The position numbers and the translations under genes were made by a program. DNA of 64,000 bases from Chiloscyllium plagiosum. Its lineage: Eukaryota. Position 1 is the stretch's first letter; the number at the start of each line of letters is the position of its first letter. The stretch spans positions 4,983,156-5,047,155 of the forward strand of contig NC_057753.1 of the NCBI RefSeq assembly GCF_004010195.1. The letters run 5' to 3'. This document shows positions 1-59,717 of the stretch, piece by piece. The notes beneath the pieces were generated by a model. It was not told where the DNA came from, ran no database searches, and saw nothing but the letters and a program-made list of their open reading frames with translations.

Positions 1-238
1 TCTTCCCGACCTCCCCCCCCCCACCCCCTCTCCGGCCTATCACCCTCACCTTAACCTCGTTCCACCAATCGCATTCCCAATGCCCCTCCCCCAAGTCCCT
101 CCTCCCTACCTTTTATCTTGGCCTGCTTGACACACCTTCCTCATTCCTGAAGAAGGGCTTATGCCCGAAACATCGATTCTCCTGCTCCTTGGTTGCTGCC
201 TGACCTGCTGCGCTTTTCCAGCAACATCTTTTTCAGCT
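1..238 (+). mobile_element. Penelope-like element 3' end (pLTR-like) with minimal hammerhead motif
   Basis: C-rich tract, then CTGAAGA-AGGGC-TTAT-GCCC-GAAACATC (147-174) and the GCTGCCTGACCTGCTG tail. The same tail ends the RT/GIY-YIG element at 34213-35793. Confidence 0.75.
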
Positions 239-799
239 ATGTCTTGTGATCGCCTGCAGTAACACAACCATTGATATCTCTCCCCAGAAGGTAATGAAGG
301 TTTTGTCACTGAATTGATTCAAGGCAGAATTTTATCAATTTTTGGCAGACAAAGATATCAAGGGTTATGGTGCCAGTCGAGAAGGTGGGAGCTAGAGTGC
401 AACCATTTCAGCCTATTCATTGGCCATACAGGCTCAAAAGGCTGAACGGCTAATCCTGCTCTGAATTCTTATGTTCCCACCTTGAAAACTGATCCAAGTC
501 TGGCTTCTTGAGTATTTCCAATCTTAATCACTCCTGCATTCATGGCCACTTATTCAGCTTCTAAGGTCTTAACCTCCGGGATTTCCTGCCGAAACGTCTC
601 TGACGCTCCATCTGACGTTCCTACTTTAAGATAGCTCTTACCACCCTACCTCTGCGACCAAGCTATTATCACCTCATATCTACTCGTGTGTTTCGGTGCA
701 TTGTAACACACCTGTTAAATAACATTTTATTATAGTAATAGCATTGCGGGGGCACATTCACCCCACAGACTCCAGCGGTATAAGAACGTCAAAAACTGC

Positions 800-1520
800 T
801 GGGAAAAGAGACACTGTCTCTAACCTTGTCTTGCATTCATCAGGACATTTGCAAGAACAATCAAGGGAACAATGTTTTATACTGTGACAAAAAGAGATGC
901 TGATTGGTTAAGGCATGGTGCTGGCCATTGCACCAATTAGTGAATGATTAACAGGTACACTTTGTTTAAATACAAAGCAGATAGCTTGGCGTCCAAATGG
1001 TCAAGGCATTTCCCTGAGAACTGAATGAGAGAATGGCTGTTTAGGTGAATTGATATAGTGGCACTGTCTGCTAAGAATAGGACCACATGCATGATTGTAT
1101 GCAGCTTCGGGTAATCTCAAGTGTGCAAGCCAACTGCCTAAACTGATTGTCTACATAATATTTAGCACACTCAGATTTATTTAGCAAACGTTCTGCTATC
1201 GCAGAATCACACCTAATATTTGAGAGCGTTGTTTTAGTGCTGCAAGCAGGAGCTGGTTGGGTACATTTCCTGTTGTGAACAGCTATGGGGACATGACGCG
1301 CCAGTTTTGGGATGCATGTCCTACAGATCTAGCTTCACACTGGAGGACAGAAACGCTGTCGAACTTGATGGGCATTAAAAGCTCAGGAGTAGAAATAAAA
1401 CCAACAATCGGAAAAGAAAAAGTTCCTGACTGTGAGATTTTAAAACTAGTAAGACTGCTAAGACAGCAGATGGTCAGTGATGGGCAATGGTAGAAATTAC
1501 ATTTGAAAACAGTCAACAGA
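800..1520 (-). mobile_element. Decayed Penelope-like element (GIY-YIG endonuclease region and 3' end)
   Basis: Minus-strand peptide relics QCEARSVGHASQ (cf. CxxxYVGRTSQ) and CDSAIAERLLNKSECAK, plus a degenerate hammerhead near 815-844. Confidence 0.55.
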
Positions 1521-1738
1521 AGTTACAGCAAAATAAAAACGTCATCAAAACACACCCATTGTAAGATTCAGAGGAAGTCTGTCAATGACAGAAAGGTGGT
1601 CAGAGAGGGGAATGGATGAAGATGGACTCTGATCCACAAGGAGTCACACCAGCCCCAGAATCTTGGAACGTCTCACACATATAACAGAGCACAACAACAA
1701 AAGCTCAATATTGTAGAAAAATGGTCACAAATACTCAC

Positions 1739-1846
1739 CTCTGAAACCACTTCAGCTTACATTTCCCTGCCGGTATCAGCAGCTCGAAAGATATCAGCAG
1801 CACTGGAGTCTATATTCTATGATTTATCTACGATTCTATGATTTCA
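1739..1846 (-). other. Putative non-coding 5'UTR exon of a ZNF gene whose coding exon lies left of the window
   Basis: Acceptor ttttttcctctggctccag|tg and donor cagag|gtgagt. Homologous to 38070-38142(+), upstream of the ZNF at 42808. Lies downstream of the promoter at 5610-6010. Confidence 0.5.
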
Positions 1847-5320: not shown

Positions 5321-5609
5321 TGACCTGAAAGAAGTTCTGGCATTTACATATTAATGAATCAAAACCTGCAATCCATTCTAAAAGTTGAAAGACTGAACAG
5401 CAATCTCAGTTTGCCCAATACATCGTATCAGTTGCATGACACTACGATCTTGTGCTCTCAATTCTGTGAATTATGATCCTGAGCCACTGGCTACTTGACG
5501 AAGGAGCAGTGCTCCGAAAGCCAGTTCTTCCAAATAAACCTATTGAACTATAACCTGGTGTTGTGTGATTTTTAACTTTGTCCAGTCCAGCCCAGTCCAA
5601 CACACGTCA
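5321..5609 (+). mobile_element. Non-autonomous PLE-derived element with degenerate hammerhead
   Basis: TTGACGA-AGGAGC-AGT-GCTCC-GAAAG at 5495-5520. Flanked by 9-bp direct repeat TGAACAATG (5312-5320, 5610-5618). Same family as 26402-26627 and 47787-48829. Confidence 0.7.
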
Positions 5610-6200: not shown

Positions 6201-6567
6201 TCACACCCAACCTATTTTCATAAGTGAAACGTTTCCACCCTCTCTCCATTGCTTTAATTTTCTTTCTAAAATGCAGAGCCCAGAACTGAGCTGCCACATC
6301 TCAGCTGAGGCTAGTCTCTTATACAAGGCCAATAGAACGGCTTGCATTCACATTCCATACCCTGAGGATAGTGTGTATTTTATTGAGCACTCTGTCAACC
6401 TACACTGCCACATTTAATGACTTCTGCACTAAGTCCCTCTGCCTCTACATACCTTTGGAGTTGTACCCTTTGTTTAACTGTTGTTGCTAGCACAGAACTT
6501 GATTGGTGACAAAAGTCAAACTTTGTCAAAGCTGTTCGTCGTGCACTCATCAGGATAATTGACAAGA

Positions 6568-6660
6568 TTCCTGAAGAAGGGCTCATGCCCGAAACGTCGA
6601 TTCTCCTGTTCCTTGGATGCTGCCTGACCTGCTGTGCTTTACCAGCAACACATTTTCAGC
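6568..6660 (+). mobile_element. 93-bp hammerhead-headed mini-insertion with 12-bp TSD
   Basis: TAATTGACAAGA at 6556-6567 and 6661-6672. The insert is a hammerhead core plus a short PLE tail. Confidence 0.8.
6571..6598 (+). ncRNA. Minimal type I hammerhead ribozyme motif (PLE-type)
   Basis: CTGAAGA-(A)GGGC-TCAT-GCCC-GAA-ACGT-C: conserved core, stem II, palindromic ACGU stem III and GUC triplet. Confidence 0.7.
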
Positions 6661-7545: not shown

Positions 7546-8564
7546 AACATGAACTGCTGGAGGAGTTATTATGTGGAAGGGTCATTCATCTCAAAACATC
7601 AACTATACAGTGGCACTGGCTATTAGCCAGGGAACAGATAATTCATTATAGTTTTAGTTGTGCATCTACTTGTAGCGTTAACAATAATTATTTGTTCAGA
7701 AACAAAAACAGAAATTGCTGGAAAAGCAAGTCTGGCAGCATCTGTGAAGAGAAATCAGAGTTAACCTTTCGGGTCCAGTGACCCGTCCTCAGAACAAGTT
7801 CTGATTTCCAGCATCCATAGCTCTTACAGTTTTTAATAATCATTTGTTGTTATGATGATGCTTTAAACTCTCAGAATTGTTCCAAAGAACGTGTTTAAAT
7901 CAGATTGTATTACAACTTAAAATGACGATTCATACAAATTGCATAAAGATGTTTGTTCAAAGTCAGATTAAGGGGATATACGGAATATTTCATTGTTCGG
8001 TTATCAAAACTGAAGATCAATTAAACAGAATTAGAGCATAGGCCAGCCAATCAATAACCCATTAATGTGTGGGAAGAGAGAATCTTGAATTTGTGCTTGG
8101 GGTAAAGACTCTTGTCTCTGGAGACCTTCATACACAGCAATGTCCAGAGGGGATTAGCTTCCCCTGATCAACCTTTTATAAACACACAGAAATCCGTTAG
8201 ATATGATAAGTATGTTTATGTCTCCATTTAGGTTAACTTATTGTGGGAAATTGACAGCAGATAATTTCAATGATACAGGGACACTATGTCTAAAATTAAA
8301 ATTTGTTTGTTTGGTAGTACAGAACTTGAATATTGCTGGGAAAAAAAAGGGACGTTTTGTCTTGCAAGCATAAGAAACGTGACGAATAGCAAAGTCTCCA
8401 CCAAAGTCCCCAGGCCAACCAACCAATCAGCACCCCCCTTTCAGCTTAAACTTTAACTTTCCCATTGAATTGGTATTTTCGTGAATTGTCCCAATAAGGG
8501 CAAGACAAAAAGCTTTGATAAAACAAGACACAAATTAAAAGGTTTGATTGTATGGATGTATTAG

Positions 8565-9059: not shown

Positions 9060-9760
9060 ACATGAAGAGTCAATGAACTGTAGTCCTCCGGTGTGAATGT
9101 GCTCGTGTACAATGAAGACAGATGAGAAAGTAACTGACCTGAGTCAAACATATCAAAAAGACATGCATTTGCTGCATTTAACATAAAGCTGATTTATTTT
9201 GATTTTATCAACGGCGTTAACACTTCTAAGTGGGCTGGGGATTTTCCACATCAGCTCCAACAGATGCAAATGAACATGATTCAGTCTTGTATGTGTTTAA
9301 CAGCAAGTTCCAATCACTGGAATGATGGGCTGGCTGAGTGAAACCCTTCCCACACTCTGAGCAGGTGAACAGTCCCTCCTCAGTGTGAACTCCCTGACGT
9401 ACAGTGAATTGAAGTAACTGCTTGAGCCCAGCCCTAGCAGAGCGAACATCTGAACTGTCTCGCGTCAGCGCGAACATGTTGATGGTGCATGTGTTCCCAA
9501 CGCATTTGATACACCACCCACAGTCTGGGAATTTAAAAGTTATCTCAGGAGTGTGAATTTGTTGGCATGTCAGCAGATGGGACAGGGAGTGAATTCCTTC
9601 CCAGTAGAGGAAGAGGTTACATAGAACATAGAACATAGAACATAGAAGAATTAAAAGTTATCTCAGGAGTGTGAATTTGTTGGCATGTCAGCAGATGGGA
9701 CAGGGAGTGAATTCCTTCCCAGTAGAGGAAGAGGTTACATCTTCACAAACGAACTGCAGC
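9060..9760 (-). pseudogene. Decayed C2H2 ZNF relic 1
   Basis: [21 protein letters not shown] and HTPEITFKFPDCG remnants. Carries the same 3' motif GATAAAATCAAAATAAATCAGCTTT (~9186-9210) as intact ZNFs. Confidence 0.75.
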
Positions 9761-11924: not shown

Positions 11925-14480
11925 TAGATGGAGAAAGATGTTTCGTTCAGATAAATGCGAGGTGTCGCGTTTTGGCTAGACAAACCGGGGCCGTACATAG
12001 AGGGCATAGGATTAGGGTGAGAGAGGAAAGATATAAGAGAGACCTAAGGGGCAACTCTTTCACATAGAGGGTGGTATGTGTACGGAATGAGCTGCCAGAG
12101 GATGTGGTGGAGGCTAGTACAATTGCAACATTTAAAAGGCTTTTGGATGGGTATATGTTTGGCTAGACAAACCGGGGCCGTACATAGAGGGCATAGGATT
12201 AGGGTGAGAGAGGAAAGATATAAAAGAGACGTAAGGGGCAACTCTTTCACACAGAGGGTGGTACGTGTACGGAATAAGCTGCCAGAGGATGTGGTGGAGG
12301 CTAGTACAATTGCAACATTTAAAAGGCTTTTGGATAGGTATATGACGAGGAAGGGTTTGGAGGGATATGGGCCGGGTGCTGGCAGGTGGGACTAGATTGG
12401 TTTGGGATATCTGGTCGGCATGGACGGGTCAGACCGAAGGGTCTATTTCCATGCTGTACATCTCTATGGCAGGTAGACAGGGTAGTGAAGAAAGCATTTG
12501 GCACGCTTGCCTTCCCTGGTCAGAGCATTGAGTACAGAAGCTCAGATGTCACATTATGGCTGTGCAAGACATTGGCGACGCATTTGGACCACTGTGAATA
12601 ATTCTGGTCACCTTGCTGGACAAAGGACGTTATTAAACTGGAAAGAGTGTAAGAATGGATGTCACCAAGACTGGAGCGCTTGAGTTATAAGGTGTGTCTG
12701 GATAGGCTGGGACTTTTCTCCCTGGAGCGTAGAAGGCTGACCTTATAGAGGTTTATAAAATCGTGAGGGGCATAGACAAGGTGAACAGCAACGGTCTTTT
12801 TCTCAGGACAGGGCAGTCCAAAGCTAGAGGCCATAGATCTAAGGTGAGAGGCAAGATTTTATCTCTCCACCCTTCAGGCACTCTGCCTGTATTCCTGATG
12901 AAGGGCTTTCACCCGAAACATCGATTTTCCTGCTCCTCGGATGCTGCCTGAACTGCTGTGCTTTTCCAGCACCGCTCTGATCTCGACTCTGGTTTCCAGC
13001 CTCTGCAGTCATTGTTTTTAACCGAGATTTCAAAAGGAGCTGAGGGGCAACCTTTTCACACAGTGGGTGGTGTGTATTTGAAACAAACTGCCAGAGGACA
13101 TTGTAGTGGCAGGTACAAATGCAACCTTTAAAAGATATTTGGGCAGGTACATGGATAGGAAGGTTTAGAGACACATGGGGCTAATGAGAAATGGGACCAG
13201 TTCAGTTTCGGAAACCTGGTCGGCATGGACACATTGGGGCGAAGGGCCAGTTTCCGTGCTGTACACCTCGATGCGTTTTGGAAAGGCAAATCAGGGCAGG
13301 ACTTACACACTTAATGGTAAAGTCATATAGTCAGAGATGTACAGTACGGAAACAGACCCTTCGCTCCAACCCGTCCATATATCCCAACCCAATCTAGTCC
13401 TACCTGCCAGCATCCTTCCAAACCCAGCCAAATGCCTTTTAAGTGTTGCAATTGTACCAGCCTCCACCACTTCCTCTGGCAGCTCATTCCATACACGTAC
13501 CACCCTCTGCGTGAAAAAGTTGTCCCTTAGGTGTCTTTTATATCTTTCCCCTCTCACCCTAAACCTATGCCCCTCTAGTTCTGGACTCCCCCACCCCAGG
13601 GAAAAGACTTTGTCTATTTATCCTATCTCCTGGGGAGTGTTGCTGAACAAAGAGATCTTGGAGTGCAGGTTCATAGCTCCTTGAAAGTGGAATCGCAATA
13701 GACAGGATAGTAAAGGCGGCATTTGGTAGGCTTTCCTTACTGGACAAAGCATTGAGTATAAGAGTTGGCAGGTCATGTTGCAGCTGTACAGGACATTGGT
13801 TAGGCCACTTTTACAATTCTGGTCTCCCTTCTATAGGAAGGATGTTGTGAAACCTGAAAGGGTTCAGAAAATATTTACAAAAATGTTGCCTGAGTTGGAG
13901 GGTTTGAGCTACAGGGAGAGGCTGAATAGACTGGGGCTGTTTTCTCTGGAGTGTTGGAGGCTGAGGAGTGATCTTATGGAGGTTTATAAACCATAAGGGG
14001 CATGGATAGGATAAATAGACAAGGTCTTTTCCCTGGAATGGGGGAATCCAGAACAAGAGGCCATAGGTTTAGGGTGAGAGGGGAAAGATATAAAAGGGAC
14101 CTGAGGGGCAACCTTTTCATGCAGAGGGTGGTGCATGTATGGAATGAACTGCCAGAGGAAGTGATGGAGGCCAGTACAATGACAGCAGTTCAAAGGCATC
14201 TGGATGGGTGTATGAATAGGAAGGGTTTCGAAGGATGTGGGCCAAATGCTGGCAAATGGGACGAGATTAATTTAGGATATCTGGTTGGTATGGATTAATT
14301 GGACCAAAAGGTCTGCTTCCATGCTGTTTCGCTCTTTAACTCAATGGACATTCCCCTACGAATAGGGAAGGTTTAGAGGGACATAGGCCAAGTGCTGGGA
14401 AATGGGGCTAGGTTAATTTAGGGTACCTGGTTAGCATTGGACTGAAGGGTCTGTTTCCATGGTGTACATCTCTACGATTC
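11925..14480 (+). mobile_element. Pile-up of nested CR1/HER1 3' fragments (one inverted at ~13325-13625), with a PLE hammerhead insert at ~12860-13020
   Basis: Repeated RVVRVWNELPE / RLGLFSLE peptides and tails. Tandem duplication at ~11972-12340. CTGATGAAGGGCTTTCACCCGAAACATC at 12895-12922. Confidence 0.85.
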
Positions 14481-14826: not shown

Positions 14827-15696
14827 TCAGTTGTGAACCCGCTGGTGTGCCAGTAAATTGGATAACTTAGTGAATCCCTTCCCGCACTCGGAGCAGGTGA
14901 ACGGCCTCTCCCCGGTGTGAATTCGCTGGTGTACAGTGAGGTCAGATGATCGTGTGAAGCCAGTCCCGCAGTGAGAGCACCTGAACGGTCTCTCGTCGGT
15001 GTGAACCCGTTGATGGCGCATCAGTTCACTGGAACTTTTAAAGCACTTCCCGCAGTCCGGGCAGTTGAAAGGCCGCTCCCCGGTGTGAACTCGCTGGTGC
15101 GTCAGGAGGTTGGAGGACCGAGTGAATCCTTTCCCACACACGGAGCAGGTGAACGGCCGCTCCCCGGTGTGAATGCGCTGGTGCTTCAGCAGGTGGGTGG
15201 ACTGAGTGAATCCTTTCCCGCACACGGAGCAGGTGAAGGGCCTCTCTCCGGTGTGAATGCGCTCGTGCACAATGAGTTGAGACGATCGCTTGAAGCCAGT
15301 CCCACAGTGAGAGCACCGGAACGGTCTCTCGTCGGTGTGAACAAGCTGATGGGACATCAGTTCCCCGGAGCTTTTGTGGCACTTCCCGCAGTCTGGACAT
15401 TTAAAGGGTCGCTTGTCGGTGTGAACTCGCCGGTGCGTCAGCAAGGTGGATAACCGAGCGAATTCCTTCCCGCAATCGGAGCAGGTGAACGGCCGCTCCC
15501 CGGTGTGACTGCGCCGATGGATTTCCAGTTGGCCGGGATATTGAAATCCTTTCCCACAGTCACCACACTTCCACGGTTTCTCCCCGTCCTGACTGCATTT
15601 ATGTTTCGAGAGACCAGACACCCGGCTGAAGCCTCGTCCACATACAGAACATGTGTACGGCTTCTCCCCAATGTGAACGCTGTTGTTTCCTTCCAT
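14827..15696 (-). CDS. Tandem C2H2 zinc-finger protein A (289 aa; 9 canonical fingers and 1 degenerate)
   Basis: Uninterrupted ORF with TGERP/TDERP linkers. ATG (MEG) at 15696; acceptor ..tttaacag|g at 15806; in-frame TAG at 15706-15708. Confidence 0.9.
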
Positions 15697-16399
15697 GCTC
15701 AAAGTCTAGCGGTACTCATGTCGAGATAATGTGGGCGATTCTGCACAAACTTGGGGGCGATGTTCAGTTTGAGTATCCCATCAGCAAATCTTCCCTTTCT
15801 GAAGTCCTGTTAAACTGATTTAAAAATGGAAAAGAAAACAGGTGAAAAAGAACTCAGAAAGGCAGTATTCGAAATTGAGCTGCATAAATCTGGTAATTGT
15901 GGGACTGTCCTAGGCAAAAATGACGGTGTGAAGGCTACTGGATTGACTTTTAAAATAAAACCCAAAGAGGTTCTTCAGCAAGGGATGTTTGCCACATGAT
16001 CTAGGCTACATATAACTCCATCTTTATGGTGAGTTCGGGGCGGTGGTGGTGAAGCACAAACATAGAGAGATAACAACACAGACTAAGAGACACAGGCTTT
16101 ATTTGGTCTATAACTCCGGACCTGGGCTCCATTCAATACAACTCAACCGGAGCACACACAGGATATAGAGTCATAGAGATGTACAGCATGGAAACACACC
16201 CTTCGGTCCAACCCCGTCCATGCCGACCAGATATCCCAACCCAATCTAGTCCCACCCGGCCCATATCCCTCCAAACCCTTCCTATTCATATACCCATCCA
16301 AATGCCTCTTAAATGTTGCACTCTGCCACCTAGAAGAATCAGAGTCGCAGGTGTAAGTGAACACCATCCCCTCCAAGTCACACTGTTCGGTCACACAAA

Positions 16400-17525: not shown

Positions 17526-18145
17526 ACTCGGGAGTCAGATGTAAAACTTGCTATTTGTCTGGCCAAGTCCAGCTCTCAAGAAGCCTGATAGTATCCAGGG
17601 CAGGGATGCCCACTTAATGGTCACATCCACAAGCATTCACAATAACAACATTTAAAAGGCATCTGAATGGTATACGAATAGGAAGGGTTTAGGGAGATAA
17701 CGAGTCAAATGCTGGCAAATAGGACAAGGTTAATTAAGAATACCTGGTCAGCACGGATGAGTTGGACCAAAGGGTCAATTTCTGTGCTGTACATCTCTAT
17801 AAGACACTCATTCCACCACCAACAGTCAGCAGTAGTGTGTACCATCTACAAGATGCAATGCACATATTCACCAAAGATCCTGAAGCAGCACCTTTCAAAT
17901 TGACAACGTCTATCATCAAAGTCAAAGGAACATCACCCCTCCAATGTGAGTGGCCCTCCAAGCCACTCACCATCCTGACTTGGAAAAGTATCACCAATCC
18001 TTCAAAATCCTGGAATTCCCTCCCTAATGGCGTTGTGTGTCTACCTACATCAAAGAAATTGTAGTAATTCAAGTGCAAAGTACACCACTTTCTCAAGGGT
18101 AACTAGGGATGGGCAATAAATGCTTGCCCAGCCATTAATGCCTAC

Positions 18146-18678
18146 TGTTGTGGTTCTGTTCGCCGAGCTGGGAAATTGTGTTGCAGACGTTTCGTCCCCT
18201 GTCTAGGTGACATCCTCAGTGCTTGGGAGCCTCCTGTGAAGCGCTTCTGTGATCTTTCAGCTGTCCGTTGCAGTGGTCGGTATATTGGGTCCAGGTCGAT
18301 GTGCTTATTGATTGAATCAGTGGATGAGTGCCATGCCTCTAGGAACTCCCTGGCTGTTCTCTGTTTGGCTTGTCCTATAATAGTAGCGTTGTCCCAGTCG
18401 AATTCATGTTGCTTGTCATCGGAGTGTGTGGCTGGTCGTGTCGTTTCGTGGCTAGTTGGTGTTCATGGATGCGGATCATTAGCTGTCTTGCTGTTTGTCC
18501 TATGTAGTGTTTTGTGCAGTCCTTGCATGGGCTTTTGTACACTACGCTAGTTTTGCTCATGCTGGGTATCGGGTCCTTCGTTCTGGTGAGTTGTTGTCTG
18601 AGAGTGGCTGTTGGTTTGTGTGCTGTTATGAATCCTAGTGGTCGCAGTAGTCTGGCTGTCAGTTCGGAAATGCTCTTG
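18146..18678 (-). mobile_element. Penelope-like element 3' fragment (GIY-YIG) with hammerhead
   Basis: VVYKSPCKDCTKHYIGQTARQLMIRIHEH GIY-YIG motif. Confidence 0.85.
18186..18219 (-). ncRNA. Minimal hammerhead ribozyme motif
   Basis: gca-CTGAGGA-tgtcacctagacaggggac-GAA-ACGT-C-tgc: stem I gca/tgc, stem II and GUC triplet all present. Confidence 0.7.
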
Positions 18679-19394
18679 TAGCACCCGAGCTACAAATCTT
18701 CTCACAAACTTTGAATTAATGCCTATAATCCCATGAATGATTAATAAAAGCAAACAGATCAACAGTCAGTCCAGGATAAATATTCAGGAGAAACAAATGT
18801 TGGTATGTGTTGTGTGTGCATGTGAATCATCCACGATCAAAGTTTACAAAGCCCATCACCGAAGCCAGGAGGAAAACACTCCTTCCTCATGCACGTTCCC
18901 CACTGTGCATTGCCCCTCTGTTGTGGAAAGCAATCCTTCAATTCAAGGACAACATCTACCCATGGTCGTGAGCAACCTGCCCTCTAAGATGGGCACTGAG
19001 GATCCATGTACAGCGATCGGCATCAGTAAGTAAGAGGAAAACAAAGACAGAAATTTCAGAAAAGTTCAGCAGGTCTGGCAGCTTCTGTGCAGAGACGTCA
19101 GAGTTAACCTTTCAGGTTGAGTGGCCCTTCCTCAGAATGTTTGGTTCTGACTTACAGCATCCGCACTGCTTTCGGCTTTCATTTAGTAAATTAAGAGGGA
19201 ACGCTGGTCATGAGTGTCTGCCATGTGACTGAGCAACCCCTCAAATGTTTCAACACAAGGGATGTCCCATGAGATAGTGGGATCTGGAAGAGCAGGATTT
19301 ACTTCCTTTCCTTTCCTTTCCACTCCACTCTGCCTCATCAACAAGACATTGGGGGTAAAGGGCTAATGCAGCTTAATGGACAAGTTGTCTCCAT

Positions 19395-19790
19395 TCTTAA
19401 CAATGGGAAGCAAGCTCCTCCCACTCAATACAAATATTGCCCCCAATAAAGATGGCGGATGCGCATGCGCTCTTGCGTGCGCTGCCCCCCAGTACACAAT
19501 GGCGGACGTTCCCCGGGGCCTAACTCTGAATGAAAGCCTCTAGCTCATCCTCACTCCGTGCAAATCGGGCACCCGTGTACATTAAATTGGATTCGCGGTG
19601 TGAACGAGATGCTTACGAACCCAGCCCGCTCCATCCATCCACCGCTCCGTCAGGCCCGCCTCATGCTCACCGTTTTCGGGACCGAAGACAAAACACATCC
19701 GTCGACCGCCATTAACGGCTCCGCGCATGCTCTGTACGCCATCCGGTACCGCGCCTGCGCACTGCTCCCCTAATTATGGCTCGGGTACAT
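19395..19790 (-). promoter_or_regulatory. CpG-island promoter and first exon, probably of ZNF A
   Basis: YY1-like AAGATGGCGG (~19449), NRF1 GCGCATGCGC (~19461), GCGCCTGCGCA (~19752); candidate donors at 19616 and ~19670(-). Confidence 0.7.
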
Positions 19791-20096
19791 CCACTGCGGG
19801 GAATGGGTGGCTGCAGAGTGGCAAAGGGACCACTGCCCACAGACAACAACAATGACAACGTTGTGCATTTTTATAACATCTTGAACACAATAGAAACTTG
19901 CTGCGATGGTTCACAGGAGCGTTTGCTTTCTCCACATTAAGACAGTTTCTGCTTGTGTCTCCAATTTGGTCTTGATGTGGAGGTGCAGGTGTTGGACTAA
20001 GGTGGACAAAGCTAAAAAATCACATAACTAGCTAGGGCTTCCAAATAAACCTGTTGGACTGTAACCTGGTGTTGTGTGATTTTTAAATTTGGTCTT

Positions 20097-47786: not shown

Positions 47787-48829
47787 ATGTGGAGGAGTCA
47801 GTGTTGGACTGGGCTGGACAAAGTTAAAAAATCACAACACCAAGTTATAGTCCAACAGGTTTAATTGGAAGCACTAGCTTTCAGAGAACTGCTCCCTCAT
47901 CAGGTGATAGTGGAACATAAGATCATAAGTCACAGAATTTATAGCAAAAACCTGGATTTGTTCAATTAACAAACTTTGGAAATATAGAGTCATAGAGATG
48001 TACAGCACGGAAACAGACCCTTTGGTCCAACCCGTCCATGCCGACCAGATATCCCAACCCAAACTAGTCCCACCTGCCAGCACCCGGCCCATATCCCTCC
48101 AAACCCTTCCTATTCATACACCCATCCAGATGCCTTTTAAATGTTGCAATGGTACCGGCCTCCACCACTTCCTCTGGCAGCTCATTCCATACACGTACCA
48201 CCCTCTTGATGAAAAGGTTGCCCCTGAGGTCTCTTTTATATCTTTCCCCTCTCACCCTAAACCTATGCCCCTAGTTATGGATTCCCTGACCTGAGGGAAA
48301 AGACTTTGTCTATTTATCCTATCCATGCCCCTCATGATTTCGTAAACCTCTATAAGGGCACCCCTCAGCCTCCGACGCTCCAGGGAAAACAGCCCCAGCC
48401 TGTTCACCAGCCTGTTCAGCCTCTCCTTATAGCTCAAATCCTCCAACCCTGGCAACATCCTTGTAAATCTAAAACTAGTTTGCCTCAAGATTGGGACACA
48501 GACAGATTCTGACCTCATACCTTTAATGCATTGTCTGAGCTGAGATGCCACCTTTTGTTAAAAAAACCTTACGTAATCTCGAGAAGGTGACTTAGAAGGA
48601 CTTCTGGGATTTACATAATAGTGAACCAAAACCTGCATTCTAAAAGAAAAAGACTTAACAATCCAGGTTTGTTCAATGTATCGCTGTATGACACTAGTCT
48701 TTTGCTATAAATTCTGTGTCTTATGATCTTATACTCCACAACCACCTGATGAAGGAGCAGCGCTCCGAAAGCTAGTGCTTCCAAATAAACCTGTTGGACG
48801 AGAACCTGGTGTGGTGTGATTTTTAACTT
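47787..48829. mobile_element. PLE-derived element with ~130-bp inverted termini each carrying a hammerhead; CR1 fragment inserted at ~47985-48470
   Basis: 47821-47950 is approximately the reverse complement of 48700-48829. Hammerhead cores at 47875-47903(-) and 48746-48774(+). Confidence 0.8.
48746..48774 (+). ncRNA. Minimal hammerhead ribozyme motif
   Basis: cac-CTGATGA-AGGAGC-AGC-GCTCC-GAA-AGCT-A-gtg: stem I cac/gtg, palindromic AGCU stem III and CUA triplet. Confidence 0.7.
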
Positions 48830-49149
48830 AGTGCCGACAAAAAACAGGACATAACCAACAACAAGAAGCAGAAGTTGCTGGAAAAGCTCAGCAGTCTGGC
48901 AGCCTCCGTGAAGAGAAATCAGATAACATTTCGGGTCCGGTGACCTTTTCTCAGCGTATGTCCAATTACTGTCTCATCGATCTAATGCCAGTCATCAGCA
49001 AACTGGTGCCAAGTGATTTAATAGTGTTATTGAGCAGCATTTACACAGCAATATGCTGCTGACTGGTTCTCAGTTTGGGTTCACCAAGGGCCACTTAACT
49101 CCTGACCCCATTCCAGCCTTGATCCCAACATAGTCTCAGGTGTTTTTTT

Positions 49150-49705
49150 GAGATTTGTAGCTCAGGTTGTAAGTTTGCTCGCTGAGTTGGAAGGTTTGTT
49201 CTCAGAGCTTCGTCACCATGCTAGGTAACATTATCAGAGGGCCTGCAGTGAAGAGCTGATGTTCTGACCCTCTTTCTATTTATGGGTCTTGGTCTGTTAA
49301 GGTGGGTGATATCATTTCCGGTTCTTTTTCCCAGAGATTGGTAAATGGGGTCCATGTCGATGTGTTTATGGATGGAGCTCTGGTTTGAATGCCAGGCCTC
49401 TGGGAATTCCCGTGCGTGTCTTGCTTAGCCCGTCCTGGGATGGATGTGTTGACTTTCGACTGGGATTACACATCCATCCCAGGACGGGCTAAACAGAGAC
49501 ACACACGGGAATTCCTTGAGGCCTGGCATTCAAACCAGAGCTCCATCAAGATGGACCCCATTTACCAATCTCTGAGAAAAAGAACCGGGAATGATATTAC
49601 CCACCTTAAAAAACCAAGACCCATAAATAGAAAGAGGGACAGAACACCACTGTTTCACCAGAGGCTCACTGATCATGTTACCTAGCGTGGTGATAAAACG
49701 TCTGA
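49150..49705. mobile_element. Inverted pair of Penelope 3' fragments
   Basis: ~49210-49450 and ~49469-49700 are inverted copies. Peptide GRAKQRHTREFLEAWHS (GIY-YIG C-terminal part). Degenerate hammerheads at both ends. Confidence 0.8.
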
Positions 49706-49904
49706 GTACAATTTCTTTACTCAAGAGAGTAGTAGAGGGCGTGGAATGCACTGCCTGCAACAGTTATAGACTTGCCAACTTTAAGTGGTCTTTGGTTAGG
49801 CATAGAGATGGGAATGGAATAGTGTAGGTTAGATGGGCTTTGGATTGGTTTCACAGGGCAGCACAAGATTGAGGGCCGAAGGGCCAGTATTGTGCTGTAA
49901 TGTT

Positions 49905-51714: not shown

Positions 51715-52313
51715 GCAAAGGTGAGGACTGCAGATGCTGGAAACCAGAGTCTAGATCAGAGTGGTGCTGGAAAAGCACAGCAGGTCAGGCATCATCCGAG
51801 AAGCAGGAAAATCAATGTTTCGGGCAAAAAGCTCAAATGAAGGCAGGGAGCCTCCGGGGTGGAGAGATAAATGGGAGGGAAGTAGGGCTGGGGAGAAGGT
51901 AGCCAAGAGTACAGTAGGTGGATGGAGGTGATAGGTCAGAGAGGAGGGTGGAGTGGATAGGTGGGAAGGAAGATCGGCAGGTAGGACAGGTCACGAGGAC
52001 AGTGCAGAGCTGGAAGGTTGGAACTGGGGTAAGGTTGGAGGGAGGGGAAATGAGGAAACTGGTGAAGTCCACATTGCTGCCCTGGGGTTGAAGTGTTCCG
52101 AGGCGGAAGATGAAGTGTTCATCTTAATCCCCACCCCCATCCACCTACTGACATTCTTGGCTAACCTTCTCCCCACCCCCCCCTCCCATTTATCCCTCCA
52201 CCCCAGAGGCTCCCTGCCTTCATTCCCGATGAAGAGCTTTTGCCCAAAAGGCCGATTTTCCTGCTCCTCGGATGCCGCCTGACCTGCTGTGCTTTTCCAG
52301 CACCGCTCTAATC
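51715..52313. mobile_element. Inverted pair of PLE 3' ends bounded by a single 13-bp TSD
   Basis: CAGAAAGAGCGAG at 51702-51714 and 52314-52326. Left arm on the minus strand, right arm on the plus strand. Confidence 0.8.
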
Positions 52314-53619
52314 CAGAAAGAGCGAGACCAACATTAAACGTCTCCTGCATTCCCTGTTTTCTTCGTGACTCTTAACAGGGAAGTCTTGTCTCTTGTGACA
52401 AAAAATAAAAGAACTGAAGTTATCTCAAATTAGAAACAAGAGAAGATCCTAAAATGGAGCAGTCAGGAACAGGACATCGAATAGTCTCTGCTTAACCTGG
52501 AAAATTCAAGGACTTGACCCACCGCATGTGTTTGAAAAGAAGCTGATTTATTTAACAGATGTCAGGATATCAAACTCCCGCCTAGTTACAGGGATTATTA
52601 ACATCAATCAAAATAAACCCCAAACTGTCGGTAAGAATAGGGCTCGGTTCTGGATGCGATTAATTCTGCTGCTACTGTCATGGACTCTCACATTCAGGGA
52701 AACAGGAGATAAATATCAAATGTTTCTGGTGGTTAGACAGTCTAGGAATAGGTCACAATCCAGAGGCTAAGGCCCGACCCCTTCAGGAGCCTGACTGCAC
52801 AGGATTTGGTTCAGTGCAATCTGATTCAGCAACACAGAAGCCATTTTGTGCAGCTCCATTTTGTTCTACCTCCCAGGGGCCCATATCCTCAACGTGACAC
52901 AGAAACAGGCCATTTGACACAACCCGGTCCCTGTCGAGTTTCGTGCTTCAAAGAAACCTCTTCTCCAGCACTTTTCTTGTGTGGAATCTTCAAAAGCATC
53001 GACAGCATTCACTTTGACCACTTCTTGTGATAGTGGGTTACTAGCACAGCCTTGCCCTTTCAGAAGCTGCTTCTGAATCCCCAGTTGGATTCCCTGTTGA
53101 CTAGTGCATAGTGACAGCTGCTCTACACAAGAAGAAACTTGATAATTTTACAAGAAGTCATCTCCTCAGCCAGCGAAACAGGACCCAAGCCCGACAACCC
53201 TTTGCTCAATCGGTAAGCACACCCATTCCTCCGTTCATCATTTTAAACCTTCTCTGCGCCCTGTACTGTGCCTCTTCCTTTAGCTAAAATGGCCACCAGA
53301 ACTGCGCACAAGAGGTCGGTCAGTCCTGCACTTACAGATTACCGGGAAGGCCAGTCAAGTGCATCCGTGACCTGAACGTAGTGAGAAACGACCAAGTAAG
53401 GACGATGAAAGAGCTGAACAGACAGGAAACCCGCAACAGGACAGAATGGTTCACTTGGTCCCAGGGAACAAGCAGAGGGAGACCGAGCCTCTGTAGTGGC
53501 CTGTGGCATCGCCCCTGAACGGTTGGCAGGGGACGCGACTTGGAACGAATGTCAGCCACCATCAAATTGGAATGCCTTTCCTATTCAAAATGATTATTTT
53601 TTGACAAGAGTCCGCCCGA

Positions 53620-54695
53620 GTCCGGACCACGTGTGGGAAACACGACCCAGGGAGCTCGACGTCATCTAAACAAAGCGGCCTCCCCACTCGGTTGGCACCC
53701 TGCACGCTATCCCGTCGCCCACATCTATTACAAACCCACCGACTCCCACAGCTACCTTGACGACACCTCACCCCACCTGCAAAAAAAAAATGATCCCACA
53801 TTCCCGATTCCTCTGCTCCCAGGCTGAGGAATTCCACTCCAGGACAACCCAAATGTCCTCCTTCTCCAACAATTTCCCCTTCTGCCCGTGATCAACAATG
53901 CCTTCAGCTGCACCTCCTCCATTTCCCGCACCTCTGCCCTCAAACAAACACCCCCACCCCCAACCACAACCAGGACAGAGTCCCTCTGATCCTCACACCC
54001 CACCCCGCGAATCTCCAATTCCAACGCATCATCCTCCGCCACCTGCAGTTGGACCCCTCCACTAAAATTATATTTCCCTCCCTAACTCTATCTGCTTTTG
54101 CGCAGGAACCGTTCCCTCTGTGACTCCCTCCGTTCGGTGCACAGTACCCACCAACCCCTCCTCCACACCTGGAAAACCTTCTCCTGCCAATGCAGGAGGT
54201 GCAGAACCTACTCCCCCCCCCCCCCCCCGCCTCACCTCCATCCAAGGCCCCTAGGAATCATTCCAAGAGATTCACATACATCTCCTCTAACCTGATTCAT
54301 TGTATCTGTTGTTCCAGATGCAGTCTCCTCTACATCGGAGAGACCGAGCGCAAACTTGGGGACTGGTTCAGGAAATATCTATGGCCCATACGCTCCAATC
54401 AACCCCACCTTCCGGTTGCCATCCATTTCAGCTCCCCCTCCCCTGACGACCTGTCCATCCTGGGCCTTCCTCACCATCAATACAAGGCCACGCGCAAACT
54501 GGAGGAAGACCACCTCATCTTCTGCTTTGGGAGCCGACAACTACATGGCCTTAACGTAGCCGTCAATCGCTCCCATTTATTCCGCAGCCCCCTTCCGTCC
54601 CCCAGTCCTGATGAAAAGTTCCGACCTGAAATGTCGACTCCCGTTTTCCTACGACGCTGCATGACCCGCTGAGCTTTTCCCAGCTCCACTCTTGA
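53620..54695 (+). mobile_element. Penelope-like element 3' half (GIY-YIG) with hammerhead
   Basis: IYYKPTDSHSYLD and LIHCICCSRCSLLYIGETERKLGD. agtc-CTGATGA...GAAATGTC-gact at 54604-54639. Confidence 0.85.
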
Positions 54696-55209
54696 TCCAC
54701 TATTCCTTCAAATAGCCACACAGTGGCCGCGGTGTGTACTGTCTACAAGGTGCACCGCAGGACAAGGTGCACCGCAGGAGCACACCCAGGCACCATCCAC
54801 AGCACCCCCGAAACCCGTGACCTCCACCACCCCGAAGTACAAGGGGAGCAGTTGCAATGGGAACGTCACCCCCAACAAGTTTCCAACCAAGACCCACACC
54901 GTCCTGATTTGCTACGACACTTGTCATTCGTTCGTCGTTAATGGATCAAAACCTTGACTCCCACCCCTAACGACAGCGTGGGTGCCCCTACACCCCGGGG
55001 GATTGCAGCAGTTCGAGGCACCAGCTCACCACCACCTCCTCCGCTGCAGTTAGGGATAGGAAATAAATGCCACAAGTTAACGAGAGAGAAAAAGACCTTC
55101 AATCCAATTTTCTTTTAGAGTCTGCCCTGGAGAAATAATCGGCCTTCCTGTGTCTGACAGCCTGAAGACTGCACCGGTAGCACTCTTCGCGAGAGAGGGC
55201 TATTCTGAG

Positions 55210-56550
55210 TCATGGTCCAACCATGTTCCCAAACTAAACTAGTCCCAACTGCCTGCATTTGGCCCATATCCCTCCAAACTTTTTCTATTCGTGTGTTTAT
55301 CCGAATGCCTTTTAAACATTGTCGCTGTCCCACCCCTTTGTCAGGGAGTTCGTTCCACACTAACCACAGTGTGAAAATAAAAAAAGGTCCCCTCATGTCC
55401 TTTACAAATCTTCCTCTTGAAAAATACGCCCCCTAGTTTTGAACTCCCCCACGCTATGGAAAAGACCTTTGCTATTCATCTTATCCATGCCCCTCATGAT
55501 TTTATAATCCTCTGTAAGGTTACCCCTCTCAACCTCCAGTGAAAGAAGTCCCGGCCTATTTTTATAACTCAAACCTTCCATGCCCGGTAACATCCTGGTA
55601 AGGCTTTTCTGAACCTTCTCCACTTTAATAATATCCTTCCTATAACTCAATAACCAGAACTGCACACAGTCCTCCAGAAGAGGCCTCATCAACATCCTGT
55701 GCAATCTCAACATGGCGTCCCAACTCCGATACTCAAAGGACTGAGCACCGAAGGCAAGCTTGCAAAATGCCTTCTTAACCACCCGAGCTCTGACCCAAAC
55801 TTCAAAGAATTATGTACCTGAACACCCACGTCGCTCTGTTCTAGAACACTATCCGGGGCTCTACAATCAAGTGTATAAGTCCTGCCTTGTTTGCTTTACC
55901 CAAACACAATGCATTTATTCAAATTAAACTTCATCTGCCATTCCTCAGCCCACTGAGACAAGTGCGTAACATCTCTTTGTAATCTTAGATAATCTTCTTT
56001 CACTGGTGTCCTCTATTGGGGAGACAGGACGCCTTCTTGTGGATCCCTTCAGAGAACATCCCTGGGACACCCGAACACCCCAACCCCACCGCCCTGTGGC
56101 TGAACACTTCAACTCCTCCCTCCCACTCCGCCAAGGACATACAGGTCCTGGGCCTCCTCCACCACCAAACCATTACCCACCCGATGCCTGGAGGAGGAAC
56201 GCCTCATATTCTGCCTTGGGGCCCTGCGACCACACGGGATCAATGTGGATTTCAACAGCTTCCTCATCTCCCCTTCCCCTCACATGATCCCAGTCCCAAG
56301 CCTCCAACTTGGCCCTCTCCTCCAGACCCGTCCATCACTGCCCCCTCTGACTTATCACCTTCTCCGTCCCCTCCATCCACCTATTGCTTTCCCAGCTGCC
56401 TCCCCCCAACTGTTTATCCCTCAAACGTCTATTCTCCTGCACCTCGGATGCTGCCTGACCTGCTGTGCTTTTCCAGCACCACACACTCGATGCGGACCTC
56501 CAGTCCTCATTTTCTCCTAACCTTCTTCACTGTCCACTATACCACCATCT
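55210..56550 (-). mobile_element. CR1 fragment interrupted by a PLE 3' fragment (~56007-56515, +)
   Basis: CR1 peptide RPLLEDCVQFW. The PLE portion resembles the reverse complement of 34213-34800. Confidence 0.8.
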
Positions 56551-57190
56551 TACCTTTGGGGTCACGTTAGAAAATGGTTTGGGAGGCACTGGTAAGGAAG
56601 AAACAGTTTAGTTTAGCATTTGAGATAATTAAATGCTTTTAAAATGTATGCTATAATATTGCAGAAATATGCTCGGATTTTGTGAACATTCCAGTCAACG
56701 GATTCTTCCAATCCACTGACCAGATTGCACTTATCTTCATTCCTGAGCTGACTGGAGTTCGGTACCAGGCGAAAATATTTGGAGCCTATGGATTCTTGCC
56801 CAATTCCAACTTCCCTTCTTTCTGGTGAATGATGGAGGGACCAGTGTATGGAACATCCAAGACAGTAGGAATTGTCAACAAGTATTCATCTGCGCTTTCT
56901 CACTGAAGAATTTAACCGGTGCAGACTTTAAATTGTAGGGATTTCGAATGGATTATCATTCTAATCTAAGCTCTGATGAGAATTCATGAACTGAGAGCAT
57001 AGATGACACACAAAAGGTTCTCAAAAGGACACTGCAACAGTGGGAGAACAGTCAGCTGCAGATTCACAACATTAGCAGTGACGGAGGTCATTAACATTAT
57101 CCGCAGGAAGGAACTGCCAACATCAGGAATAACGTGGGTCAGCCCTGGGTGCGATTAATAGTCACAGCGACAGCAGAGTCCAACCCGTGG

Positions 57191-59281
57191 TCACTTGTGA
57201 ACTTGCCGGTGGGTCGCCAGGTTCGCGGACTGGGTGAATCCCTTCCCGCACACCGAGCAGGTGAATGGCCGCTCCCCGGTGTGAACGCGCTGGTGTGAAA
57301 ACAGGCTGCCCGAATGCCTGAAACTCCTTCCGCAGCGAGGGCAGACAAAGGGCCTCTCGTCAGTGTGGACCCGCTGGTGCGTCAGCAGGTGGGATAACTG
57401 CGTGAATCCCTTCCCGCACTTGGAGCAGAGAAACGGCCTCTCCCCGGTGTGGATTCGCTGGTGCTCGTGGACGCTGCCTGAATGCCTGAAGCTCTTTCCA
57501 CAGTAGGTGCAGATGAAGGGTCTCTCGTCAGTGTGAACCCGCCGGTGTGTCAGCAGGTGGCACGACTGAGTGAAAGTCTTTCCGCACTCGGAGCAGGAGA
57601 AAGGCCTCTCCCCGGTGTGAACTCGCTGGTGCGTCAGCAGGTGGGATGACCGGGTGAATCCCTTCCCGCACTCGGAGCAGGTGAATGGCTTCTCTCCAGT
57701 GTGAACCCGCTGGTGGACCGTGAGTTGGGATGATCGCTTGAACCCTGTCCCGCACTGAGAGCACCTGAACGGCCTCTCGTCGGTGTGAACACGGCGATGG
57801 GATGTCAGTCCATCAGCCCTGTTGAAGCACTTCCCGCAGTCTGGACACTTAAAAGGTCTCTCCCCAGTGTGAATGCGCTGGTGGACAGTGAGCTGAGAGG
57901 AGTGCTTGAAGCCAGTCCCGCAGTGAGAGCATCTGAAGGGTCTCTCGTCAGTGTGAACCCGTTGGTGGGACATCAGTTCCGCAGAGCTTTTGTAGCACTT
58001 CCCGCAGTCTGGGCATTCGAAAGGTCTCTTGTCGGTGTGAACCCGCTGGTGTACAGTGAGTTCCGAGGATCGCTTGAATCCTATCCCACACTGAGAGCAC
58101 CTGAACGGCTTCTCATCAGAGTGAATACGCTGATGGGACATTAGTTCCCAGGAACTTTTATAGCACTTCCCACAGTCTGGGCATTGGAAAGGTCGCTCCC
58201 CATTGTGCACTCGCTGGTGTGTCAGCAGGTGGGCGAGCTGAGTGAATCTCTTCCCGCACTCCGAGCAGGTGAACGGCCGCTCGCCGGTGTGGACCCGCTG
58301 GTGTGTCACCAGGTGGGACAAGCGAGTGAATCCCTTCCCACACTCCGAGCACGTGAAAGGCCTCTCCCCGGTGTGAACCCGCTGGTGAGTCAGCAGGTCA
58401 GCTGACTGAGCAAATCCCTTCCCGCACTCGGAGCAGGTGAAGGGCCTCTCTCCCGTGTGAATGCGCTGGTGGGCTGTGAGTTGAGACGAGTGCTTGAAGC
58501 CTGTCCCACACTGAGAGCACCTGAATGGTCGCTCGTCGGTGTGAACACGCTGATGGGACATCAGTTCCCCGGAACTTTTGTAGCACTTCCCGCAGTCTGT
58601 GCACTTAAAAGGCCTCTCCCCAGTGTGAAGCCGCTCATGTACAACGAGTTGAGACGAGTGCTTGAAGCCAGTCCCACAGTAAGAGCATCTGAATGGCCTT
58701 TTATCAGTGTGAACGCGTTGGTGAGTCATCAGTTCCCCAGAACTTTTATAGCACTCCCCACAGTCTGGACATTTGAAAGGTCTCTCGCAAGTGTGAACTT
58801 GCTGGTTTTGCAGGGTGGATGAATCAATGAATGTCTGCCCATCTGCAGAGCTGGTGAAAGGTATCTCTCCTCTATGAATCTGGCAGTGAATCATGAAGTT
58901 GGAATGCAGGGTGAACGTCTCTCCGCACTCAGAGCAGATGAATGGTCTCTCCCCAGTGTGAGTGCGCTGGTGTCTCATCAAGTGAGAGGACCGAATGAAT
59001 CCTTTCCCACACTGAGCACAGGTGAATGGTCTCTCCCCGGTGTGACTGCGCCGGTGAGTTTCCAACTCAGAAGGGTAACTGAATCCCTTCCCACAGTGCC
59101 CACACTTCCACGGTTTCTCCCCAGTGTGACTATGTTTGTGTTTCGACAGGCCAGATGAACGGCTGAAACCCTGTCCACATAGAGAACACGTGTACGGTTT
59201 CTCCGCAGTGTGGACAGTGTCTTTTCCTTCCATGTTCATAACCTGATAACTTTCAAGTTGTTGCAAACTGTACAACTCCAT
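57191..59281 (-). CDS. Tandem C2H2 zinc-finger protein D (~680-696 aa; 23 fingers and 1 degenerate)
   Basis: Intact ORF; first ATG at 59281, homologous MEGK ATG at 59233; acceptor ..ttttcacag|g at 59324; in-frame TGA at 59306-59308. Confidence 0.92.
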
Positions 59282-59689
59282 TAAATCCTGAAGTGGCAAT
59301 CCATTTCAGTCCCCTTCTAACATCCTGTGAAAATCGATTTTGAACAGAAGAAAAAAGGAGTGTGAGAGGAAACCCCAAAAAAAAATGTAGGTTGTCAAAC
59401 ATGGCTGAATGACTCTGGAAATGTGTGCAGCTGTCACAAGTTAAAAGTGACCATGAAAGCTACTGGATTGTCACAAAAAAGCCAACCGGCTCATGCAACC
59501 TGGTCTGGCCTCTGTGAAAGGAGAAAGAGATAGTAGAGTTGGATGTGAGTTAAGGAGCGAGATTTTATATCAGCTGCAACTAACCAAGGTCTGAACAAGA
59601 TGGACTCACTCTAACACCCCCCCCCCTCCCCCCTGAGTCTCCAGCAACTGGGTAGCAGATGTATGTGACCATCAACTGTCCCTCCATTC

Positions 59690-59717
59690 CTGATGAAGGG
59701 CTTTTGCCTGAAACGTC
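59690..59717 (+). ncRNA. Minimal hammerhead motif heading a ~100-bp PLE-tail insert (~59685-59785)
   Basis: CTGATGA-AGGGC-TTTT-GCCT-GAA-ACGT-C. Confidence 0.65.

What the first reader, a model, noticed from the sequence alone, without database searches (positions are those of the whole stretch)
147..59717. About 20 minimal hammerhead-ribozyme motifs from several families scattered through the ZNF cluster
Seen: CTGANGA-[stem II]-GAA-(ACGT/AGCT)-H cores, intact or degenerate, at ~147(+), 815(-), 5495(+), 6527(-), 6571(+), 7762(-), 12895(+), 18186(-), 19105(-), 26209(-), 26455(-), 26508(+), 34308(-), 47875(-), 48746(+), 48924(-), 49208(-), 49669(+), 51813(-), 52226(+), 54608(+) and 59690(+). At least five different stem II sequences surround the same core. 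Established: Penelope-like elements carry minimal type I hammerheads with a palindromic stem III that favours dimer cleavage. Inference: this genome has an unusually diverse, abundant PLE-hammerhead repertoire. Some intact copies are sense to a predicted ZNF pre-mRNA (18186 lies in the predicted intron of ZNF A) and could cleave it.
Basis: partly seen in the sequence, partly recalled or inferred. Interest (0 to 1): 0.7.

Follow-up and report, generated by a model that had tools for sequence, protein, structure and literature searches.

The report
Penelope retrotransposon tails carrying minimal hammerheads
These motifs are real, but they are the broken-off tail ends of several families of Penelope-type jumping genes, each carrying a known kind of tiny predicted self-cutting RNA (hammerhead); they litter the whole genome, decay by ordinary mutation and likely do not cut the zinc-finger genes' RNA.

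Summary
All 22 sites are real family members (7 pass a strict hammerhead descriptor; shuffles give 0.04). They are the 3' pseudo-LTR ends of 5'-truncated Penelope-like elements (PLEs): fixed 3' end, optional ~35-nt tail, inverted arms, and GIY-YIG or RT remnants upstream of 7 listed sites. Seven families show compensatory stems (41 of 42 pairs), matching the published minimal PLE hammerhead. Abundance is genome-wide (52,867 exact-pattern matches; about 130,000 strict copies extrapolated), and the ZNF cluster is not clearly enriched (29 copies, p=0.10). Family diversity is ordinary (coelacanth 6, Xenopus 8 published). The host-cleavage idea is not supported: in 582 kb of introns of two giant genes sense and antisense copies are equal (87:94; strict 9:10), the catalytic G12 is mutated in 26% of copies, and site 18186 has no matching dimer partner nearby. 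No cleavage assay was possible. This scan has reported the same thing before on other DNA (770 notes, at least 36 genomes). Verdict: new members of a known kind; low interest.

The parts
147..174 (+). Family A hammerhead, palindrome decayed (ACAT); end of a 5'-truncated PLE
796..860 (-).
5492..5577 (+). Family B copy, C3 and palindrome mutated
6503..6567 (-).
6571..6598 (+). Family A hammerhead, intact; a ~90-nt stub that starts just before the core
7763..7792 (-). Family D hammerhead, palindrome broken (AGGT)
12895..12922 (+). Family A hammerhead, palindrome decayed (ACAT)
14827..15705 (-). ZNF A, C2H2 zinc-finger coding exon
18138..18720 (-). 5'-truncated Poseidon-type PLE: inverted tail (18680-18720), GIY-YIG remnant (18337-18581), 3' pseudo-LTR
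18186..18219 (-). Family C2 hammerhead, intact, equal to its family majority; predicted cut after 18186; sense to the predicted ZNF A intron
19106..19135 (-). Family D hammerhead, palindrome and stem II broken; sense to the predicted ZNF A intron
19440..19800 (-). CpG island, predicted promoter and first exon of ZNF A (candidate donor at 19672)
   Evidence: inferred from paralogous islands
26210..26240 (-). Family E hammerhead (C11.1 to U), downstream of GIY-YIG (26827-27009) and RT (27492-28058) remnants
26401..26589 (.). Family B fold-back insertion: intact core 26455-26483 (-) and U4C core at 26508 (+); predicted locked by its own inverted arm
34255..35754 (-). Longest PLE remnant (Neptune-like): RT, GIY-YIG (34633-34845), then decayed family A hammerhead (34308-34336)
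47875..47903 (-). Family B hammerhead, stem II weakened by G-U changes
48746..48774 (+). Family B hammerhead, intact
48874..48954 (-).
49159..49711 (.). Family C1 head-to-head inverted pair with endonuclease C-terminal remnant; both hammerheads decayed (49208, 49669)
51726..52317 (.). Family A head-to-head inverted pair with endonuclease C-terminal remnant; both hammerheads decayed (51813, 52226)
54271..54690 (+). GIY-YIG remnant (54271-54504) followed by a decayed A-related hammerhead at 54608
56015..56483 (+).
59690..59717 (+). Family A hammerhead (C11.1 to U); antisense to the predicted intron of ZNF D

Best explanation
The motifs are the minimal type I hammerheads in the 3' pseudo-LTR of several Penelope-like retrotransposon families, left in the window as 5'-truncated copies that decay neutrally and likely do not cut the host ZNF transcripts. 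Shown: family membership, position behind the GIY-YIG endonuclease (families A, C, E; weak for B), fixed 3' end with optional tail, inverted arms, compensatory stems across families, genome-wide spread, CpG decay of the core after insertion, no sense depletion in introns. Inferred: in active source elements two hammerheads of a tandem transcript pair through the ACGU/AGCU palindrome and, probably helped by the element's protein, cut the RNA; selection on source elements kept the fold; reverse transcription starts just 3' of the ribozyme and usually stops early, so almost every stub contains it. A lone copy has no stem III and a 2-3 bp stem I and would be inactive.
For: Descriptor 7 vs 0.04 in shuffles. 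GIY-YIG remnants on the same strand upstream of 18186, 26209, 34308, 54608 (and unlisted 56414), RT remnants further up at 27492-28058 and 34974-35754, endonuclease C-terminus before 49208/49669 and 51813 (sequence). In genome loci: endonuclease upstream in 9 of 30 C, 4 of 25 E, 1 of 30 B loci; locus L057 holds RT, CxxC linker, GIY-YIG and a family A hammerhead in order. 3' extent bimodal (A ~90/~127 nt, B ~87/~122, C1 ~75/~110), 5' extent scattered, inverted arm in 30 of 116 A and 18 of 47 B copies, as described for PLEs (PMC8557442 passages, PMC11167929). Stem I/II base pairs in family majority lines 41 of 42 for 7 families, shuffle mean 25, 0 of 100,000 reach it. G12 mutated in 40 of 153 A copies; base-matched core vs flank mismatch odds ratio 0.80, no base significant. 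Introns of two CSMD-like genes: 87 sense vs 94 antisense, strict 9 vs 10, i.e. about 19 and 33 strict sense copies per gene. Published: single min-HHR inactive, dimers weak (PMC4209133); anole PLE hammerhead cuts only with the element's protein and no RNA-seq reads end at the site (PMC11167929); 8 of 9 Xenopus dimers did not cut (bioRxiv 2026.07.22.740005).
Against: No endonuclease upstream in 0 of 25 D, 0 of 15 G and 0 of 10 A pattern loci: D is tied to PLEs only by its 3' sequence shared with A and E, G only by motif shape and position. Pfam barely sees the proteins (GIY-YIG E=0.093 for L057; none for 7 window fragments); the PLE call rests on motifs known to me and on PMC8557442. Unmatched for base, the core is slightly less mutated than the flank (3.3% vs 4.8%, p=0.02). 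One of three descriptor settings shows the window above background (11 vs 25 in 385 kb, p=0.013). The strict orientation test is small (19 copies, CI 0.24-0.71), from two + strand genes only. Families are related (A, D, E, H share 3' sequence), so the shuffle test overstates independence. Activity was not assayed.
Confidence: 0.9

Rival explanations
1. Intact sense copies such as 18186 cut ZNF pre-mRNA, alone or by pairing in trans with another hammerhead RNA or PLE protein, and so regulate the ZNF genes.
For: 18186 equals its family majority sequence and is sense to the predicted ZNF A intron. Family C2 RNA exists in one poly(A) run (279 reads), so trans partners are present. Protein-assisted cleavage is published for an anole PLE (PMC11167929).
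Against: No sense depletion in long introns. In the predicted ZNF units sense copies are 18186, 19105, 815 and antisense 59690, 5495, 147, 2334; ZNF B and C have none. Nearest same-strand motif is 914 nt away with a broken palindrome. Monomer folding gives stem II of 18186 a probability of 0.05 or less (the model ignores dimers and the family majority has the same stem). Reads of the family run through the predicted cut with no pile-up of ends (other copies, fragmented poly(A) library, weak test).
Confidence: 0.04
2. Some families (D, G, short A stubs) are independent non-autonomous retrozymes or mini-elements rather than truncated autonomous PLE copies.
For: 30 of 39 D copies start within 17 nt of C3 and none extends over 128 nt upstream; no endonuclease upstream of D or G. 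Non-LTR retrozymes are reported as PLE derivatives, also in one cartilaginous fish (bioRxiv 2026.07.22.740005).
Against: No head-to-tail arrays in the window; only 3 same-strand strict pairs within 3.5 kb among 50 strict copies; D carries the same optional tail and 3' sequence as A; motifs are minimal, not the canonical type I of retrozymes (PMC7229834 passages).
Confidence: 0.15
3. The motif is a vestige without catalytic use even in source elements, kept as a protein-binding or promoter structure.
For: Cleavage was not needed for insertion in vitro in the anole element (PMC11167929); Naiad PLEs lack canonical hammerheads (PMC8557442). Family A stem I is only 2 bp. The DNA footprint test of cutting was inconclusive.
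Against: All 8 family majority lines keep every catalytic core base, an H (C, A or U) at 17 and a palindrome in two forms (ACGT, AGCT), a pattern expected of selection on dimer catalysis.
Confidence: 0.15
4. Chance matches to a short pattern.
For: Two of 14 plain-pattern hits (30569, 45987) are in no family.
Against: 7 vs 0.04 and 14 vs 0.97; tens of thousands of exact copies, reversed-pattern control 0.
Confidence: 0.01

Closest known systems
Minimal hammerheads (min-HHR) in pLTRs of metazoan Penelope-like elements (Cervera and De la Pena 2014, PMC4209133; parts 1-2 of 4 read, supplement searched by keyword, file 1 not searchable)
   Same: Type I core, extra base between positions 9 and 10.1, G10.1-C11.1, palindromic 15.2-16.2, no stem III, several consensus families per genome, mostly single truncated copies, some opposite-strand pairs 100-700 bp apart.
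   Different: Copy number at least five times and by extrapolation over ten times that given for coelacanth and Xenopus; shorter stems in family A (stem I 2 bp, stem II 4 bp); no shark, skate or Callorhinchus in the searchable supplement.
Poseidon element PAc of the green anole (Frangieh et al. 2024, PMC11167929; parts 1-2 of 4 read)
   Same: Hammerhead near the 3' end of copies, optional 30-40 nt tail, C-terminal GIY-YIG; family C has the same no-linker layout as far as its remnants show.
   Different: PAc is active and assayed; the copies here are dead fragments and no intact ORF was recovered.
Neptune-clade PLEs (PMC8557442; passages read)
   Same: CX2-5CxxC linker before a CCHH-type GIY-YIG in family A (L057), 5' truncation, inverted copies.
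   Different: Clade assigned by motif only; no tree built.
Non-LTR retrozymes (PMC7229834 passages; bioRxiv 2026.07.22.740005 parts 1-3 of 5)
   Same: Type I hammerheads, dispersed monomers, PLE origin proposed.
   Different: Those are tandem 170-400 nt units, often with canonical hammerheads; here copies are ends of protein-coding elements and not arrayed.
Domesticated intronic or 3' UTR hammerheads of amniotes (RECK, Clec2; figure legend passage in PMC6155905, rest recalled)
   Same: Lie in host transcripts in sense orientation.
   Different: Those are single, conserved, with full stems; these are high-copy, decaying and lack stem III.

Membership tests
PLE minimal type I hammerhead | Catalytic core CUGANGA...GAAA...UH | tested here: met
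   All 8 family majority lines; 7 strict window copies
PLE minimal type I hammerhead | Unpaired base between 9 and 10.1 and G10.1-C11.1 pair | tested here: met
   7 of 8 families (C1 majority G-U from CpG decay, pattern copies G-C); family G does not fit cleanly
PLE minimal type I hammerhead | Palindromic stem III remnant | tested here: met
   ACGT, AGCT, AAGCTT; H majority ATGT from 6 copies
PLE minimal type I hammerhead | Compensatory changes in stems I and II across families | tested here: met
   41 of 42 pairs, three Watson-Crick types at four positions; within family A no compensatory excess
PLE minimal type I hammerhead | Self-cleavage as dimer | not testable with these tools
   No assay; RNA lay shows no ends; DNA footprint inconclusive
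Penelope-like element (EN+) | RT followed by C-terminal GIY-YIG with CCHH motif upstream of the pLTR | tested here: met
   Families A, C, E
Penelope-like element (EN+) | Same, for families B, D, G | tested here: inconclusive
   B 1 of 30 loci (E=0.0009), D 0 of 25, G 0 of 15
Penelope-like element (EN+) | 5' truncation, inverted copies, optional 30-40 nt tail | tested here: met
   Families A, B, C1, D
Penelope-like element (EN+) | RT phylogeny within Neptune or Poseidon | not tested
   Motif-based only
Non-LTR retrozyme | Head-to-tail arrays of short units each with a hammerhead | tested here: not met
   None in the window; 3 close same-strand pairs among 50 strict copies
Domesticated host-regulatory hammerhead | Purifying selection on the core after insertion, or orientation bias | tested here: not met
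   (family-wide; single-locus conservation across species not tested)

The most novel reading that the evidence does not exclude
The roughly 100,000 intact hammerheads, about half sense to host introns, are latent half-ribozymes: silent alone, but cut when Penelope RNA or protein appears (for example in germ cells), so that the copy in the ZNF A intron acts as an element-sensing switch on a zinc-finger gene.
Probability: 0.04. Interest if true: 0.8.

Novelty: new member of a known kind. Interest (0 to 1): 0.2.

Why it matters
As it stands: a very large natural sample (about a million remnants, about 130,000 with intact core by extrapolation) of a known ribozyme class in a likely shark genome, for which my searches found no dedicated paper. 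It shows that a vertebrate tolerates tens of intact sense-strand minimal hammerheads per long gene, which supports the view that these motifs are inactive alone, and it offers covarying natural variants for testing dimer and protein-assisted cleavage. It does not reveal ZNF regulation.

Tried and rejected
Rfam scan: no hammerhead match among 8 hits. Pfam on PLE fragments: uninformative. Guessed exact pattern for family G: 0 matches; a DNA search then showed an old repeat, 25 other places at 72-89% identity. MAFFT of 17 window motifs misaligned the cores, so pairing was counted by anchors; one search misparsed three families and was redone. RNA: no RNA holder listed for the ZNF A stretch; the reads came from other family copies, one of four runs laid nothing, unique flanks were nearly uncovered, and the ZNF exon was not in the stretch, so neither the gene model nor locus-specific cleavage was tested. 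A third, minus-strand giant gene was not sampled, so the orientation test rests on two plus-strand genes. Cleavage footprint in DNA: family A copies whose match starts at the cut site 905, at +3 625, at -2 148, but by hand count of the first 100 listed at the cut site about 70 are preceded by the element's own sequence (20 TCCT, 15 TCAG, 7 GAAT, 10 single-base deletions and others) through GA microhomology, and profile starts show 5 of 181 there: inconclusive. Lunse et al. 2016 (dimer cleavage) was not held; seen only as a citation and one sentence in PMC6765202. Supplements of the bioRxiv preprint, which may list its cartilaginous-fish families, were not seen.
Full report
Observation. The 22 sites are in the sequence. 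A strict descriptor finds 7 on both strands against 0.04 in 25 dinucleotide shuffles; with one palindrome mismatch 11 against 0.04; a plain pattern 14 against 0.97. Family profiles, trained mostly on copies from elsewhere in the genome (C2 and H on all copies), find 29 copies in the window: the 22 listed and 7 partial ones. Half of the listed sites are decayed in the core or stem II. Rfam has no matching model hit.

Setting. The window is G000:C44:4983156-5047155 of a 3.56-Gb genome, likely a shark from its repeat content (my inference; earlier scan notes say the same). It holds five single-exon C2H2 arrays, CR1-type LINE pieces and PLE remnants.

What the motifs belong to. Copies of each family share a fixed 3' end 75-95 nt after C3, extended in about 4 of 10 copies by a ~35-nt tail, with scattered 5' ends; 30 of 116 A, 18 of 47 B, 2 of 17 C1 and 8 of 39 D copies have an inverted arm upstream. 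These are the insertion marks described for PLEs (PMC8557442, passages; PMC11167929, parts 1-2). Locus L057 shows RT, a CxxC linker, GIY-YIG and a family A hammerhead in order, Neptune-like by motif. A GIY-YIG profile made from 9 remnants finds endonuclease on the same strand upstream of 18186, 26209, 34308, 54608 and 56414 in the window, and in 9 of 30 C, 4 of 25 E, 1 of 30 B, 0 of 25 D, 0 of 15 G and 0 of 10 A pattern loci; most copies are too short to reach it. The inverted pairs at 49159-49711 and 51726-52317 carry the endonuclease C-terminus. D shares its 3' sequence with A and E. G is an old, divergent repeat whose PLE origin is only inferred.

Is the fold real? Majority lines from copies not selected for pairing keep the full core in all 8 families; the first three pairs of stems I and II are paired in 41 of 42 cells for seven families (45 of 48 with G; E and G topped up with training copies), with three Watson-Crick types at four positions; 0 of 100,000 shuffles reach this. 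The families are partly related, so this is not a true probability. Extra base after A9, G10.1-C11.1 and the palindrome are the marks of the min-HHR of PMC4209133.

Abundance and diversity. Exact patterns match 48,561 (A), 3,374 (B), 728 (C1), 152 (D) and 52 (E) places, reversed controls 0. In 120 stretches (1,158,446 bases; 60 spread over the genome, 60 from two long genes) there are 369 copies, 43 strict, extrapolating to about 1.1 million and about 132,000 (96,000-178,000). That is far above the ~4,000 and ~9,000 published for coelacanth and Xenopus, with a different descriptor. Eight families is ordinary: 6 and 8 in those genomes, 16 in a coral. The window has 457 copies per Mb against 322 on large and 444 on small chromosomes (p=0.10). 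By descriptor p=0.10, 0.013 and 0.40 for three settings: at most a mild local excess.

Do inserted copies stay under selection? In family A the catalytic G12, part of a CpG, is changed in 40 of 153 copies and the palindrome G in 47 of 156; non-CpG core positions mismatch at 3.3% vs 4.8% in the flank (p=0.02), but matched by base the odds ratio is 0.80 with no base significant. So the fold was kept in source elements and decays after insertion.

Could they cut host pre-mRNA? CpG islands with shared motifs pair with each ZNF exon on the matching strand, which puts 18186 and 19105 sense in a predicted intron of ZNF A, 59690 antisense in ZNF D, and none in ZNF B or C; this gene model is inferred. 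For a powered test I sampled 60 stretches (581,917 bases) between the CUB exons of two CSMD-like genes of 1.6 and 1.8 Mb (identity inferred from exon layout): 87 sense vs 94 antisense copies, strict 9 vs 10, Fisher p=1.0; family A with all core bases 10 of 21 vs 11 of 25. Each gene would hold about 19-33 strict sense copies, which is incompatible with efficient cutting. For 18186 the nearest same-strand motif is 914 nt away and has AGGT for ACGT; 26455 is predicted sealed by its own inverted arm. In one poly(A) run 72 reads from other C2 copies cross the predicted cut with no pile-up of ends, a weak test. Published assays agree: single min-HHR inactive and dimers weak, anole hammerhead active only with protein and without RNA-seq ends, 8 of 9 Xenopus dimers inactive.

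Mechanism. Shown: anatomy, spread, decay, no orientation bias. Inferred: tandem element transcripts bring two motifs together through the palindrome and cut with protein help; reverse transcription begins just downstream, so even 90-nt stubs contain the motif; lone stubs are inert. A DNA trace of cutting, suggested by earlier scan notes, was inconclusive here because junctions at the cut site are dominated by GA microhomology.

Known and new. The class is published (PMC4209133). My searches found no paper devoted to shark PLE hammerheads; one preprint includes one cartilaginous fish. This scan holds 770 similar notes in at least 36 genomes, none at this place. Verdict: new members of a known kind, interest 0.2.

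Noticed in passing
genome-wide, family A (one search list): 20 of the first 100 listed copies starting at the cut site join the start of the core (TCCT-GA) directly to the base after H17: a clean deletion of the whole hammerhead by GA microhomology, perhaps the reverse transcriptase jumping across the stem I-closed fold.
   Followed up: partly
family A, D copies: 5' ends cluster just before the core: 33 of 116 A and 30 of 39 D copies start within 18 nt of C3; earlier notes read this as a transcription start.
   Followed up: partly
family A palindrome: CpG decay is lopsided: ACAT 41 vs ATGT 17 among A copies; four window copies have ACAT. Context effect or a subfamily.
   Followed up: no
window 5709, 19449, 28652, 36361, 60903: Each ZNF gene's CpG island carries a YY1-type motif (label recalled) pointing against the gene, with shared flanks: a duplicated promoter-plus-single-exon unit.
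   Followed up: partly
window 57191-59305 (-): 704-aa open C2H2 array; the other arrays are 282-353 aa; a decayed ZNF-like piece at 9226-9657 (-).
   Followed up: no
window 18680-18720: The family C tail sits inverted at the 5' end of the 18186 insertion; RNA reads of other copies join the 3' end directly to this tail.
   Followed up: partly
window 10600-10840: 27-bp tandem repeat.
   Followed up: no
window 26439-26552 and 49423-49492: Rfam microRNA-like hits below threshold are PLE fold-back insertions, not miRNA genes.
   Followed up: yes
L082/L083 (G000:C1:95529268, 95529655), L128/L129: Short partial tandems of family C (387 nt apart) and B (355 nt apart) with two intact same-strand hammerheads: better substrates for a dimer assay than the window copies.
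   Followed up: no
G000:C16:64446510-65809727 (+): Seven widely spaced CUB exons of one pattern over 1.4 Mb, not identified.
   Followed up: no
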